Of a stretch of 64,000 nucleotides of DNA, positions 47,801 through 50,800 are shown in pieces. The position numbers are program-made. Within the stretch, counting starts at the first letter, position 1; the number at the start of each line of letters is the position of its first letter. Source of the stretch: Escherichia coli O127:H6 str. E2348/69. Lineage in GTDB: Bacteria > Pseudomonadota > Gammaproteobacteria > Enterobacterales > Enterobacteriaceae. Location: assembly GCF_000026545.1 (NCBI RefSeq), contig NC_011601.1; one strand, written 5' to 3'.

Positions 47801-50800
47801 TTATTGTGTCAGTAAACGGCATATTATCAGTGATAGTTCAAACAGTTAGTAGGTAGAAAATGAAGACCAAAAGAAAGAGCTTTGATCAATTCTTATGGCA
47901 TGATATTGATTTTGAAGATGATGCTGCAAAACAGGAAGAATACCTTGAATCTGCATTGCCACTTATTGGCCAGATTGTTATGTATTTCAATGCGCTAGAG
48001 AAAGAATTAGATAAAGTCATTTATGAAGGATTCAGCGATCGGTCAGATCAGTTAGGAATAATAATTGTGCATAACATGAATTATGCAGCAAAAGTCGAGT
48101 TATTTAGACGTCACTCCGAATTATTCCATTTGGGTGTTGGGCAGCATGTTGATATGTTTGAAGGTCTTATAAAGGATCTCAAGGAATGTGGACGGTTACG
48201 AAACATTACTGTACATGCTGACTGGGATAGCACTGATGTCGAAGGATATACATATTTAGGCATCAAAATAACTAACAATGGAATATCTCAGGAATATATC
48301 CAGTTTGACCTGGGGTCGTTGGAAAGTATCCTTCAATTGATTTTCAGTACGAGATATAAGTTGAGTGATTATTCAGACTTAAGGGGAGATATACTGGCTT
48401 CACATTAGTGCCATTTTTTTACTAAATAGCTAACAAATACTATCGGTAAAAGACAACATCGCAATGGTAAAGCTGCCGTGAAGAAGACATTGATTGATTG
48501 GATCATAGAGACTGATAACTGGACAGGAATCGCAGCGTGGGCGGGTTTCGGTTTGTCAGTATTTCAGTTAGTAAAATCAAGAACATCGCTAAGACTTTAC
48601 CTCGGGTGTGATCAGCACGAGGACAGAATATACGTTTCGAACATAAGCGCACATGATGTAACGTTGAGTGTAGCCGGTGTCGTAACAGCCAGTGGACGCC
48701 TTAGAATGCTTTCCGACGAGTATTCGGATGAGAACATGATCACACCGATGTTACCAAGAAGGTTGAAAGCACGAGACGAAATGGTCTTGAACGTGCCCTT
48801 CATAAATAAGGCTCATCACAACAAAGTGCATCATCGTGGCGGGGTGTATATCAAAACATCTGACGGCAAGATGTTCAGTGATGTTTGTTGGATTAGACGC
48901 CAATGGTGGTGGTTACTGTCTGTAATACTGCGAGACACAAAGCGATAGGACAAGCGAGTCGCAGCTCATATGAGTGCCAACTGACATACGGCTCAGTTGG
49001 AATACTAGGATCGCGACTACGTGTTGTCTGCGAAAAACTGGGACTCAATAGATGGGTGTAGATTTAATTGATACGATCCTGTACGCGAATATTTCTCAGC
49101 ATAAATATCATCCCAGCGTCGGATTATGGTATTCAGAATGTGTGTGATGGTCTCTATCTTTATTCAGACCTTTTCTTCTTATCTTCCCATTCTTTTAAAG
49201 TGCTCTGATATCTTTCTTCATTTATTCTTTTTTCCTCGGTTCTGTCGCTTGAGTTGTAATTATCTGTTTTAATTTTCTTGGCTCCTTGGGATATCGGCCT
49301 CCAGTCCTCTCTAATTTTTTTCACTTGCTCGGCTATTTGTGTCATTGGACTCCTTGCTCCTAAATAGCTAACCCCCTCGAAAGAAGCCATATCATAAGAA
49401 TATTCATTGAGTTCTCTTTCTGTAGATCCGGGCTGTTTTGACCAACTGACACTAATAGAATAAATTTGATCCTTAATTTGCTCATACTTGCAGAGATTGC
49501 TGTTGAGAGAGTGTCCGTTTTTTAATACGCTGACCTTGCTAAATGGTACGCCTCTATTTTTTCTATGTTCTGCATTAACGAGAGGGGGATCAAATTCGAC
49601 CGCTATATCATAGGCTGGTGCATTTCCAGTATTAGCGATATTAATGTCAAAATAAAAAGCAGCCCAAGAGTTTGGTTCAAGAGTCACAACAACATGTGGT
49701 TGAACTGATGCGTCAACCATCCTTTTCGTTTCGTTTGCTAATAGCCTTGTTACTCTCCACAAGAAAAACGTAGCAACTGCTGTTAGCAGTGCTGCAAAAG
49801 CAGAGATCATTGTGCTTATAGTATCTATATGCTGTGTGATGAATTCGATCATTCTTCTCCCTCGAAATATAGTGCTTATTGTTATCAAAGGTAAGATAGC
49901 TCCCGGCTTGAAAAATTGCACGCTTATGGTTGCCCCTCCCTCGACGGTTAAGGCTTCAACTTCCCCCGTGCGCCTCTCCCAGCCGAAGGCTGGGCGGGCT
50001 GTATATCGATTTGCCTTCCTCTGTGGCGTTTATGACCCTGTTTCGCGTTCTTACCGTGAGGCTGTGGGTTAGGGTTACTCTTCTCTTTAAACGCTAAATC
50101 ACTCCTGAATCTCCACTGTTAAAGCACTTTGCGTTGATGCTTGGCGCTTCTCTTGGCTGTCGTTATTGTTTTGGCTTTGGTGTCATCAATCGTTCGATTC
50201 TTGCTACCTGTCTGAGTGATTACTATCTGGTATCATCAATTTAGGGTTTGACTAAATGCCACCACCAATGCAATGATGCTACCGTTTTGTGATACCAGAC
50301 GGGTGAGGTGAACCATGAGGACTTTTATCTACTGCCGCGTTTCAACACGCGAGCAGGATACGCAGAATCAGGTGCTGGCTATTGAGCGTGCCGGGTATAA
50401 GGTGCCGGAGAGCAGGGTAATCAGCGAGGACATTTCCGGCAGCGTTCAGGCTATGCAGCGCCCTAAGTTCCGGGCGATGGTTGAGCACAAGCTGGAAGCG
50501 GGAGATCAGCTTGTCGTGCTGAAACTGGACAGGCTGGGGCGTGACAACATCGATGTGCAGCAGACCATCGACATGCTGTTAGAACGCGGCGTGAAGGTGG
50601 TGTCTCTTGACCTGCCAGCGCGTGATCTGACTTCATCTGAGGGCAAGCTAATCCGCCAGATGTTTGGAGCCTTTGCTGAGTTCGAGCGAAACCGTATCCG
50701 TGAGAGGACGCTGGACGGGCTGGAGAAGGCGAAAGCCAATGGCGTTAAGCTGGGACGCAAGGAAGCCACCGACACCACTCAAAAGGTGCAGGAGCTGCGG

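What the first reader, a model, noticed from the sequence alone, without database searches (positions are those of the whole stretch)
47860..48948. AT-rich two-gene cassette: possible HEPN-motif protein plus small membrane protein
Two co-directional orphan genes sit in a markedly AT-rich segment right after the tRNA. The first (182 aa) has an R-x4-H motif (RNITVH) as found in HEPN RNases. The second (156 aa) has a single N-terminal TM helix. An HEPN-like protein with a membrane partner in an island hotspot resembles abortive-infection or toxin-type defence modules; I do not recognise this pair as a named system.
Basis: inference. Interest (0 to 1): 0.7.

Follow-up and report, generated by a model that had tools for sequence, protein, structure and literature searches.

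The report
Lone HEPN gene beside unrelated neighbour
The first gene is a genuine but unclassified HEPN-type (RNA-cutting) protein that moves between bacteria as a single-gene cassette and sits in the cargo slot of a small phage-satellite-like island; the second gene is real, but it belongs to the island and normally pairs with a different small gene, so the two are not a dedicated system.

Summary
The window is E. coli O127:H6 E2348/69. Both ORFs exist as described and both are under purifying selection.

**Gene 1 (47860-48408, 182 aa)** belongs to the HEPN superfamily.
- R114, N115 and H119 are the only invariant residues across 60 diverse relatives.
- Foldseek matches many predicted structures annotated RiboL-PSP, Cthe_2314, DUF4145 and MAE_28990 HEPN.
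- No Pfam, PADLOC, NCBIfam or PHROG model recognises it, although the family has about 488 cluster representatives.

**The "two-gene cassette" reading fails.**
- Nine of ten other gene-1 loci lack ORF2. One of these is an integron-like cassette in Methylophaga.
- Seventeen of eighteen other ORF2 loci lack gene 1.
- ORF2's usual partner is a 75-aa ORF whose stop overlaps ORF2's start (15 of 18 loci).
- In E2348/69 the gene-1 cassette replaced that ORF. In Ewingella, RAZR/PD-T7-4, a validated HEPN defence gene, replaced it.

**Setting.** Both genes lie in the variable slot of a 15-kb island (47343-62403) at leuX that encodes a capsid protein and an integrase.

**Best reading.** Gene 1 is an autonomous single-gene HEPN RNase, probably a phage-triggered abortive-infection effector. 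This is untested. ORF2's function is unknown.

The parts
47258..47342 (+). tRNA-Leu(CAA), leuX. Its last 31 nt (47312-47342) form the attL core of the island.
   Evidence: ARAGORN; Rfam tRNA; direct repeat with 62373-62403
47433..47505 (.). 73-bp element-end segment, conserved at 85-89% in related islands that sit at other tRNA sites. It contains the inverted repeat GCCGCT...AGCGGC.
   Evidence: blastn; alignment A6
47550..47805 (.). Non-coding island backbone segment, 94% identical in E. coli LR536431. In Rahnella it lies on the other side of the gene-1 homologue. It ends in a hairpin plus T-run on the + strand, just upstream of gene 1.
   Evidence: blastn; consensus fold
47770..48420 (+). 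Mobile gene-1 cassette: the extent of DNA similarity to Erwinia typographi. It runs from 90 bp upstream of the ATG to 12 bp past the stop.
   Evidence: blastn
47860..48408 (+). Gene 1, a 182-aa stand-alone HEPN-superfamily protein (WP_000851053.1, annotated 'hypothetical protein').
48199..48216 (+). Codons for R114-N115-I-T-V-H119, the predicted HEPN catalytic motif (Rx4H).
   Evidence: sequence; invariant columns
48478..48948 (+). ORF2, 156 aa from GTG 48478 or 152 aa from the family-conserved TTG at 48490. It is a small, probably membrane-anchored protein of an Enterobacterales-only family. It is unannotated in the E2348/69 records and annotated as 'hypothetical protein' in other genomes.
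49160..49852 (-). Third cargo gene: a 230-aa protein with a strong N-terminal TM helix, phrog_11802. Function unknown.
50315..50884 (+). Serine recombinase (resolvase/invertase family). It marks the inner edge of the variable cargo slot.
61028..62239 (-). Tyrosine integrase of the island, next to attR.
62373..62403 (.). attR: a 31-bp exact repeat of the leuX 3' end. With attL it defines the 15.06-kb island 47343-62403.

Best explanation
Gene 1 and ORF2 are two independent cargo or backbone genes. They sit side by side in the tRNA-proximal variable slot of a 15-kb phage-satellite-like integrative island at leuX.

Gene 1 is a stand-alone member of an uncurated HEPN family with an invariant R-N-x3-H motif. 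It travels as a self-sufficient single-gene cassette. By analogy with single-protein HEPN defences (RAZR/PD-T7-4, HepS, Tha), it most likely forms a homodimer or oligomer whose composite Rx4H site is inactive until a phage product switches it on. It would then cut cellular RNA (tRNA, rRNA or mRNA), stop translation and abort the infection. That would protect the lysogen population and the island from non-helper phages.

ORF2 is not its partner. It is a conserved small protein of this island family, probably membrane-anchored. It is normally translated in tandem with a 75-aa ORF, and the gene-1 cassette replaced that ORF in E2348/69.

Shown here: the HEPN family membership, the independence of the two modules, the cassette replacement and the hotspot context. 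Inferred: the RNase activity, phage triggering and the abortive-infection outcome.
For: **HEPN membership.**
- R114, N115 and H119 are the only invariant columns in 60 diverse relatives. RNxxxH occurs in 101 of 107 full-length representatives.
- The AF2 model (pLDDT 78, pTM 0.76) matches AFDB proteins annotated RiboL-PSP-HEPN, Cthe-2314 HEPN, DUF4145, MAE-28990 and Apea HEPN, at probability 1.0 and TM 0.6-0.79.
- Ten weak single-member Pfam matches (E<=0.1) among the 60 family members fall in four HEPN families.
- Fusion relatives carry Schlafen/AlbA_2 plus HEPN_Toprim_N, or AIG2/GGACT domains.

**Autonomy of gene 1.**
- No conserved neighbour was found in 10 loci spanning Enterobacterales, Bacteroidota and Methylophaga.
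- In Methylophaga the homologue sits in an integron-like cassette array. Its intergenic spacers carry palindromes and GTTRRRY-like boxes, next to a tyrosine integrase.

**Not a pair.**
- ORF2 is absent from 9 of 10 other gene-1 loci, and gene 1 is absent from 17 of 18 other ORF2 loci.
- A 75-aa ORF lies immediately upstream of ORF2 in 15 of 18 loci, with its TGA stop overlapping ORF2's TTG/GTG start.
- Similarity between the window and E. coli LR536431 resumes exactly at 48490.

**Hotspot context.**
- Sibling islands carry different cargo between the tRNA and the recombinase gene.
- That cargo includes a PADLOC candidate, DUF3800/PDC-M04A. In Ewingella it includes RAZR/PD-T7-4 (E=2e-94) directly upstream of the ORF2 homologue.
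- RAZR is an experimentally shown HEPN abortive-infection RNase activated by phage portal rings (PMC13017515; PMC9519451).

**Island definition.** The 31-bp att repeats, integrase, major head protein and HNH endonuclease define the island.
Against: - There is no experimental or direct evidence of RNase activity or of any anti-phage phenotype.
- Gene 1 itself matches no Pfam, PADLOC, NCBIfam or PHROG model.
- A profile search of PDB sequences found nothing, and Foldseek against solved structures gave no significant hit.
- hhalign against a RAZR sequence was not significant.
- Superposition of the motif on a solved HEPN active site was not done.
- A lone HEPN toxin with no identified inhibitor or sensor domain leaves the control mechanism unexplained.
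- Gene 1 and ORF2 are only 69-81 bp apart with no terminator between them, so they may be co-transcribed in this strain.
Confidence: 0.6

Rival explanations
1. One reading: gene 1 and ORF2 form a two-component abortive-infection or toxin module. The HEPN RNase works with, or is controlled by, the small membrane protein.
For: The genes are adjacent and co-directional, 69-81 bp apart with no predicted terminator. The block is conserved at 97% in Kosakonia arachidis. A second, unrelated HEPN gene (RAZR) also sits immediately upstream of an ORF2 homologue in Ewingella.
Against: Co-occurrence is limited to a single recently shared block: 9 of 10 other gene-1 loci lack ORF2, and 17 of 18 other ORF2 loci lack gene 1. 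ORF2's conserved, translationally coupled partner is a 75-aa ORF. RAZR defends as a single gene (PMC13017515). A gene-1 homologue is a single-ORF cassette in Methylophaga.
Confidence: 0.07
2. Gene 1 is the toxin of an addiction (toxin-antitoxin) module that stabilises the island. Its antitoxin would be an unrecognised small RNA or peptide within the 47770-48420 cassette.
Against: No conserved neighbouring ORF of at least 45 aa was found, and no MNT gene. There are no tandem repeats and no Rfam match upstream. The cassette is barely larger than the gene.
Confidence: 0.13
3. Gene 1 serves the satellite's own life cycle rather than host immunity. It might process RNA, or interfere with a helper phage to favour satellite packaging.
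For: It lies within a capsid- and HNH-encoding satellite-like island. Satellites are known to interfere with their helpers (cf-PICI paper).
Against: The gene is absent from sibling islands with the same backbone. It occurs in non-satellite contexts, namely an integron-like array and Bacteroidota resolvase loci. This pattern fits dispensable cargo.
Confidence: 0.1
4. ORF2, normally with its 75-aa partner, is a membrane-acting superinfection-exclusion or other envelope module of the island. In E2348/69 it is a partner-less leftover.
For: ORF2 homologues are preceded by the 75-aa ORF in 15 of 18 loci, and in every locus where a tRNA was found they lie 1.4-2.1 kb downstream of it. ORF2 has an N-terminal uncharged helix and a Trp-rich C-terminal helix. 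Purifying selection is still visible in the partner-less copies: 12 synonymous against 5 non-synonymous codon changes versus Kosakonia.
Against: No homology to any known family was found. The structure model is unusable at pLDDT 47. Hydropathy of the window copy is below the usual TM threshold (hand calculation on the scale). Translation from TTG or GTG without the coupling ORF is uncertain.
Confidence: 0.3

Closest known systems
RAZR / PD-T7-4 (ring-activated zinc-finger RNase; Vassallo 2022 PMC9519451; Nature 2026 PMC13017515)
   Same: Both are single-gene modules with a divergent HEPN (DUF4145-type) helical domain and an R...N...H catalytic motif, carried on integrase-associated mobile elements. 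A RAZR gene occupies the same slot, directly upstream of the ORF2 homologue, in an Ewingella island. Foldseek finds DUF4145-annotated proteins among the best matches of gene 1.
   Different: Gene 1 has no N-terminal Cys4 zinc ribbon, which is RAZR's trigger-binding domain. It has no PADLOC PD-T7-4 hit and no Pfam DUF4145 hit. Its motif is Rx4H rather than Rx7H. hhalign against RAZR was not significant.
HepS (Gifsy-1 prophage) and Tha (S. aureus prophages): single-protein HEPN defences activated by phage tail proteins
   Different: No detectable sequence similarity. Any trigger for gene 1 is unknown. Gene 1 has a beta-hairpin (130-148) and a long C-terminal helix after the motif.
Pfam HEPN families RiboL-PSP-HEPN (PF18735), Cthe_2314-like HEPN (PF18730) and MAE_28990/MAE_18760 HEPN (PF18737)
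   Same: These are the best structural neighbours by annotation, and some family members give weak profile hits to them. Size (about 180 aa) and the RNxxxH motif are similar.
   Different: Gene 1 and most relatives fall below every Pfam threshold. They form a separate, uncurated family of about 488 cluster representatives.
HEPN-MNT type II/VII toxin-antitoxin systems
   Different: There is no adjacent nucleotidyltransferase (MNT) gene, nor any other conserved neighbour.
Variable defence hotspots of phage satellites (P4-like satellites, Rousset 2022 PMC9122126)
   Same: A variable slot at a fixed position in a conserved integrative element, with swapped cargo that includes known or candidate defence genes.
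   Different: The island is not P4-like, and it is not a cf-PICI as defined: no portal, protease or large terminase was detected.

Membership tests
HEPN superfamily | Conserved Rx4-6H motif, usually with a polar residue after the R | tested here: met
   R114-N115-x3-H119 are the only invariant columns among 60 diverse relatives. The motif is present in 101 of 107 full-length representatives.
HEPN superfamily | All-alpha helical-bundle fold resembling known HEPN domains | tested here: met
HEPN superfamily | Sequence-profile match to a curated HEPN family | tested here: inconclusive
   Gene 1 itself has no Pfam hit even at E<=10. Ten weak single-member matches (E<=0.1) among the 60 family members fall in Cthe2314, RiboL-PSP, MAE_28990 and Apea HEPN; the best is 9e-4.
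HEPN superfamily | Metal-independent RNase activity from a composite dimer active site | not testable with these tools
   Requires biochemistry or at least a multimer model.
RAZR / PD-T7-4 | N-terminal Cys4 zinc-ribbon domain plus a DUF4145 domain; match to the PADLOC PD-T7-4 model | tested here: not met
   No PADLOC hit and no DUF4145 hit. The sequence has no Cys4 cluster. The Ewingella control protein hits PD-T7-4 at 2e-94.
HEPN-MNT toxin-antitoxin | Adjacent minimal nucleotidyltransferase antitoxin gene | tested here: not met
   No conserved neighbour in 10 loci. The neighbours listed carry no NTase domain next to the gene.
AbiD/AbiF (Abi_2) HEPN with ncRNA | Abi_2 Pfam domain and an associated upstream ncRNA | tested here: not met
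   The genes occur together only in E2348/69 and in a 97%-identical block in Kosakonia. They are separate in 9 of 10 other gene-1 loci and 17 of 18 other ORF2 loci.
cf-PICI (capsid-forming PICI), considered for the host island | Integrase plus major capsid, protease, portal, head-tail connectors, HNH, TerS and TerL | tested here: not met
   Integrase, major head protein (phrog_267, 3e-64) and HNH were found. No portal, protease or large terminase was found by PHROGs or NCBIfam, and no ORF of suitable size is present.
Integron gene cassette (the Methylophaga homologue of gene 1) | Single ORF bounded by attC-like palindromes ending in GTTRRRY, downstream of an integron-type integrase | tested here: inconclusive
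   The intergenic spacers carry imperfect palindromes plus GTTAGC/GTTACG/GTTGGG boxes. A 460-aa tyrosine integrase lies upstream on the opposite strand. No dedicated attC or IntI model was run.

The most novel reading that the evidence does not exclude
ORF2 is a generic membrane partner that works with whichever HEPN RNase lands upstream of it. Two unrelated HEPN genes, gene 1 in E2348/69 and Kosakonia and RAZR in Ewingella, have independently replaced the 75-aa ORF at exactly this position. On this reading the slot would be a plug-in site that couples RNase activation to a membrane function, not merely an insertion hotspot.
Probability: 0.07. Interest if true: 0.7.

Novelty: new member of a known kind. 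Interest (0 to 1): 0.38.

Why it matters
If gene 1 defends against phage, it would add a very small HEPN immunity gene (about 180 aa, with no separate sensor domain) that current defence-finder models (PADLOC) and Pfam both miss. The family has roughly 490 cluster representatives across Proteobacteria and Bacteroidota and rides on satellites, resolvase modules and integron-like cassettes.

It would also pose a tractable question: how is a bare HEPN domain kept silent and then switched on?

Separately, the analysis defines an uncatalogued family of 15-kb capsid-encoding integrative islands in Enterobacterales with a cargo-swapping slot next to the tRNA. That slot can be mined for further candidates: the 75-aa+ORF2 pair, phrog_11802, and several 260-300-aa proteins.

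For the prototype EPEC strain E2348/69, it flags a possible contributor to phage resistance next to its type I restriction locus.

Tried and rejected
**Gene 1 searches that found nothing**
- No hit in PADLOC, NCBIfam or PHROGs, or in Pfam with the single sequence.
- Pfam with family alignment A1 gave no HEPN hit.
- PDB sequence-profile searches with A1 and A3 gave only chance hits.
- Foldseek against solved PDB structures had a best E of 0.25.
- hhalign of the family profile against one RAZR sequence gave E 0.4. It aligned N115 and H119 to RAZR's N and H, but not significantly.

**ORF2 and other searches that led nowhere**
- ORF2 had no hit in PADLOC, NCBIfam or PHROGs, and only a chance Pfam match, DUF4985 at E 0.34.
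- AF2 of ORF2 gave pLDDT 47, so no fold search was attempted.
- An alignment-based search for remote ORF2 relatives added only close homologues.
- tblastn of both proteins against 50,697 phage records found no match.
- The Rfam, repeat and promoter/terminator scans of 47000-50400 found no antitoxin-like RNA and no more sites than in shuffled sequence.
- ORF2 showed no similarity to the 230-aa neighbour.
- Gene 1 showed no similarity to the Ewingella DUF4145 protein by BLASTP.
- Literature searches for WP_000851053 and for a name for the leuX island returned nothing useful; IE6 is a different island.

**Readings considered and rejected**
- The genes are fragments of a larger gene: both are full length relative to their families.
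- The 59-aa divergent ORF at 47643-47822 is a partner: it is not conserved as protein (79.5% amino-acid identity, against 97% DNA identity across the shared block), and it is absent upstream of other gene-1 homologues.
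Full report
**Where we are.** The window is the chromosome of enteropathogenic E. coli O127:H6 strain E2348/69. Region 47200-50300 is 100% identical to three E2348/69 assemblies, and only 3 of 5,426 complete E. coli genomes carry most of it. The flanking genes are lptF, lptG, yjgR and ahr, followed by tRNA-Leu(CAA), which is leuX, at 47258-47342.

**The observation.**
- Both ORFs exist at the stated coordinates: 47860-48408 (182 aa, ATG) and 48478-48948 (156 aa, GTG).
- GC drops to 0.36-0.38 over gene 1, against 0.53-0.57 in the core genes. ORF2 is less extreme at 0.44-0.48.
- RNITVH is residues 114-119 of gene 1 (nt 48199-48216).
- PGAP annotates gene 1 (WP_000851053.1, hypothetical protein) but not ORF2 in E2348/69. 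It does annotate 152-aa ORF2 homologues in other genomes.
- Both are real genes. Gene 1 has dN/dS 0.03-0.12. ORF2 has dN/dS about 0.10 against E. coli LR536431, and synonymous sites are saturated against more distant homologues while pN stays at 0.10-0.18.
- They are not orphans. An exhaustive profile search finds 488 cluster representatives for gene 1, mostly stand-alone proteins of 170-195 aa. ORF2 has about 33 clusters, all in Enterobacterales at 63% identity or more.

**Gene 1 is a HEPN-superfamily protein.**
- No curated library recognises it: Pfam, PADLOC, NCBIfam, PHROGs and PDB sequence searches all failed.
- In a 14-sequence alignment, the block E-C-G-R-L-R-N-x3-H-A-x-W is invariant.
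- In a 60-sequence alignment reaching 17-25% identity, the only invariant columns are R114, N115 and H119. G37, F43, L46, E47, K78 and L107 are nearly invariant.
- RNxxxH occurs in 101 of 107 full-length representatives.
- The AlphaFold model (pLDDT 78, pTM 0.76) is a helical bundle with helices at 22-58, 65-71, 75-93 and 99-117. A beta-hairpin (130-148) and a long C-terminal helix (151-181) follow.
- Foldseek against AFDB50 gives 77 hits at E<=1e-3. Many are annotated RiboL-PSP-HEPN, Cthe-2314-like HEPN, DUF4145, MAE-28990/18760 HEPN or Apea-like HEPN, with TM 0.6-0.79.
- Scanning the 60 members one by one against Pfam gives ten weak matches to four HEPN families.
- Two fusion relatives carry conflict-system domains: HEPN_Toprim_N plus Schlafen/AlbA_2, and AIG2/GGACT.
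- Caveats. Foldseek against solved structures is not significant. hhalign against a single RAZR sequence is not significant, although it pairs N115 and H119 with RAZR's N and H. I did not superpose the motif on a solved active site.

**The two genes are not a conserved pair.**
- I fetched 10 distinct additional gene-1 loci: Erwinia typographi, Erwinia sp. AG740, Kosakonia arachidis, Rahnella woolbedingensis, three Chryseobacterium, a Bacteroidetes MAG, Psychroflexus and Methylophaga.
- I fetched 18 additional ORF2 loci: Raoultella, Klebsiella, Ewingella, Serratia, E. coli, metagenomes and one IMG/VR contig.
- tblastn across all of them shows the two genes together only in Kosakonia. There the whole block 47325-48947 is 97% identical to the window, so it is the same recently shared segment and not independent evidence.
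- An all-against-all comparison of neighbouring ORFs finds no conserved neighbour of gene 1. The one recurrent gene is a resolvase-family recombinase, present within 6 kb in 4 loci.
- In Methylophaga the homologue is one ORF in a co-directional array of small ORFs downstream of a 460-aa tyrosine integrase. The intergenic spacers are imperfect palindromes ending in GTTRRRY-like boxes, which looks like an integron cassette array.
- In Rahnella it sits between an integrase and a resolvase, in an island of similar layout but without ORF2.
- DNA similarity to Erwinia typographi spans only 47770-48420, which delimits a compact mobile cassette.

**What ORF2 belongs to.**
- In 15 of 18 ORF2 loci, a conserved 75-aa ORF lies immediately upstream.
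- Alignment of the junction shows the family-wide start of ORF2 is TTG or GTG, overlapping the TGA stop of the 75-aa ORF (xTTGAT). This is a classic translational-coupling arrangement. The window keeps this TTG at 48490.
- Compared with the sibling island in E. coli LR536431, similarity covers 47550-47805 and then resumes exactly at 48490. Between these points LR536431 has a 259-aa minus-strand gene plus the 75-aa ORF, whereas the window has the gene-1 cassette.
- So gene 1 displaced ORF2's natural partner.
- In Ewingella the same position is occupied by a 209-aa protein that matches PADLOC PD-T7-4 at E=2e-94, and the last codons of the 75-aa ORF survive as a remnant.
- PD-T7-4 has been renamed RAZR. 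It is a zinc-ribbon plus DUF4145-HEPN RNase that acts alone, is switched on by assembling around phage portal-type rings, and cleaves ssRNA including tRNA, rRNA and mRNA (PMC13017515; PMC9519451).
- ORF2 itself remains unexplained. Its model is poor (pLDDT 47), and it matches no family.
- It has an N-terminal uncharged helix of modest hydropathy: about 1.0-1.3 in this copy and about 1.8 in homologues, computed by hand with the Kyte-Doolittle scale used. The middle is beta-rich and the C-terminal helix is Trp-rich.
- Even the partner-less copies differ mostly at third codon positions, with 12 synonymous against 5 non-synonymous codon changes versus Kosakonia.

**The setting is the cargo slot of a phage-satellite-like island.**
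- A 31-bp exact repeat of the leuX 3' end recurs at 62373-62403, which defines a 15.06-kb element.
- The element encodes a tyrosine integrase next to attR, a RecQ-family helicase, a major head protein (phrog_267, 3e-64), an HNH endonuclease, an endonuclease VII-like protein and a serine recombinase. No portal, protease, large terminase or tail genes were detected.
- It is therefore not a cf-PICI as defined. I describe it only as satellite-like.
- Sibling islands with the same helicase backbone sit at tRNA-Gly or leuX in other E. coli and carry different cargo between the tRNA and the recombinase gene. NCTC11023 has a 190-aa protein, DUF3800 (PADLOC candidate PDC-M04A, 2.5e-21) and a phrog_11802 homologue. 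ARS-C101 has a 304-aa protein. LR536431 has a 259-aa protein, the 75-aa ORF and ORF2.
- This is the pattern of a cargo-swapping hotspot, as described for P4-like satellites (PMC9122126).

**Mechanism proposed.**
- Shown: gene 1 is an autonomous, horizontally mobile, single-gene HEPN module in a defence-type hotspot.
- Inferred from established HEPN biology and from RAZR, HepS and Tha: it dimerises or oligomerises to form a composite Rx4H site, stays inactive in uninfected cells, and is activated by a phage product. It then cleaves cellular RNA and aborts infection. Because it has no separate sensor domain, the sensing surface would have to be the beta-hairpin, the C-terminal helix or the variable N-terminus.
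- My confidence in the structural and evolutionary part is about 0.85, and in the anti-phage function about 0.5. The overall figure I give is 0.6.
- Rivals: a true two-gene system (0.07); an addiction toxin with an unseen RNA or peptide antitoxin (0.13); and a satellite life-cycle function (0.10).
- For ORF2, the least bad guess is a membrane module such as superinfection exclusion, acting together with the 75-aa protein (0.3).

**Verdict.**
- Gene 1 is a new, uncurated member of a well-known kind: stand-alone HEPN effectors on mobile elements.
- It is a reasonable candidate for testing as a defence gene, but it is not surprising to a specialist.
- Interest: 0.38.

Noticed in passing
window 47343-62403: A 15.06-kb integrative island bounded by a 31-bp direct repeat of the leuX 3' end. 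The integrase lies at the far (attR) end. The island also has a RecQ-family helicase, a major head protein, an HNH endonuclease, an endonuclease VII-like protein and a serine recombinase, but no portal, terminase or tail genes were detected. This looks like an undescribed satellite-like family, with siblings at tRNA-Gly and leuX in other E. coli. ORF2-bearing islands with a capsid gene but a different backbone sit at tRNA-Thr.
   Followed up: partly
window 47433-47505: A 73-bp non-coding segment, 85-89% conserved in islands with different cargo and different tRNA targets (Erwinia, Raoultella, Kosakonia, a metagenome). It contains the inverted repeat GCCGCTGTGG...CATAGCGGC. It may be a recombination-directionality or packaging site, or a small RNA.
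   Followed up: partly
window 47550-47805: A backbone segment, 94% identical in E. coli LR536431. It ends in a conserved hairpin plus T-run on the + strand at about 47757-47805. In Rahnella the same segment lies downstream of the gene-1 homologue rather than upstream, so the cassette inserted on either side of it.
   Followed up: partly
window 49160-49852 (-): A 230-aa protein with a strong N-terminal TM helix (Kyte-Doolittle 1.9). It matches phrog_11802 over its full length (E=4e-127). About 84%-identical copies occur in other E. coli genomes, at least six of which were listed. Function unknown. It is missing from the Kosakonia version of the block.
   Followed up: partly
L012 6777-7001 (E. 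coli LR536431); L005 5777-6004; L013 6705-6932: A conserved 75-aa ORF whose TGA stop overlaps the TTG/GTG start of ORF2 homologues (15 of 18 loci). It is unannotated in LR536431. With ORF2 it forms a two-gene operon of unknown function.
   Followed up: partly
L011 5415-6044 (Ewingella sp. MAG): A full-length RAZR/PD-T7-4 homologue (PADLOC E=2e-94) sits directly upstream of the ORF2 homologue. A remnant of the 75-aa ORF's 3' end lies between them.
   Followed up: yes
L034 3244-10189 (Methylophaga sp. OBS4): An integron-like array: a tyrosine integrase on the minus strand, followed by co-directional small ORFs separated by palindromes ending in GTTRRRY-like boxes. The ORFs include a gene-1 homologue and a Phd-ParE pair.
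   Followed up: partly
proteins P0154 and P0156 (metagenomic relatives of gene 1): Fusions of the gene-1-type HEPN domain: one to AIG2/GGACT (gamma-glutamyl cyclotransferase-like), the other to HEPN_Toprim_N plus Schlafen AlbA_2.
   Followed up: partly
window 50885-52149: About 1.26 kb between the serine recombinase and the helicase gene has no annotated gene and only short or unconvincing ORFs. It could hold an origin or regulatory region of the island.
   Followed up: no
window 62628-64000 (-): A type I restriction enzyme gene, hsdR (with hsdS beyond it), starts immediately after attR. The island therefore abuts the strain's restriction locus.
   Followed up: no
L022 5959-6533 (Chryseobacterium indologenes J31): The gene-1 homologue is split into two ORFs, apparently by a frameshift, so it is probably a pseudogene in that strain.
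   Followed up: no
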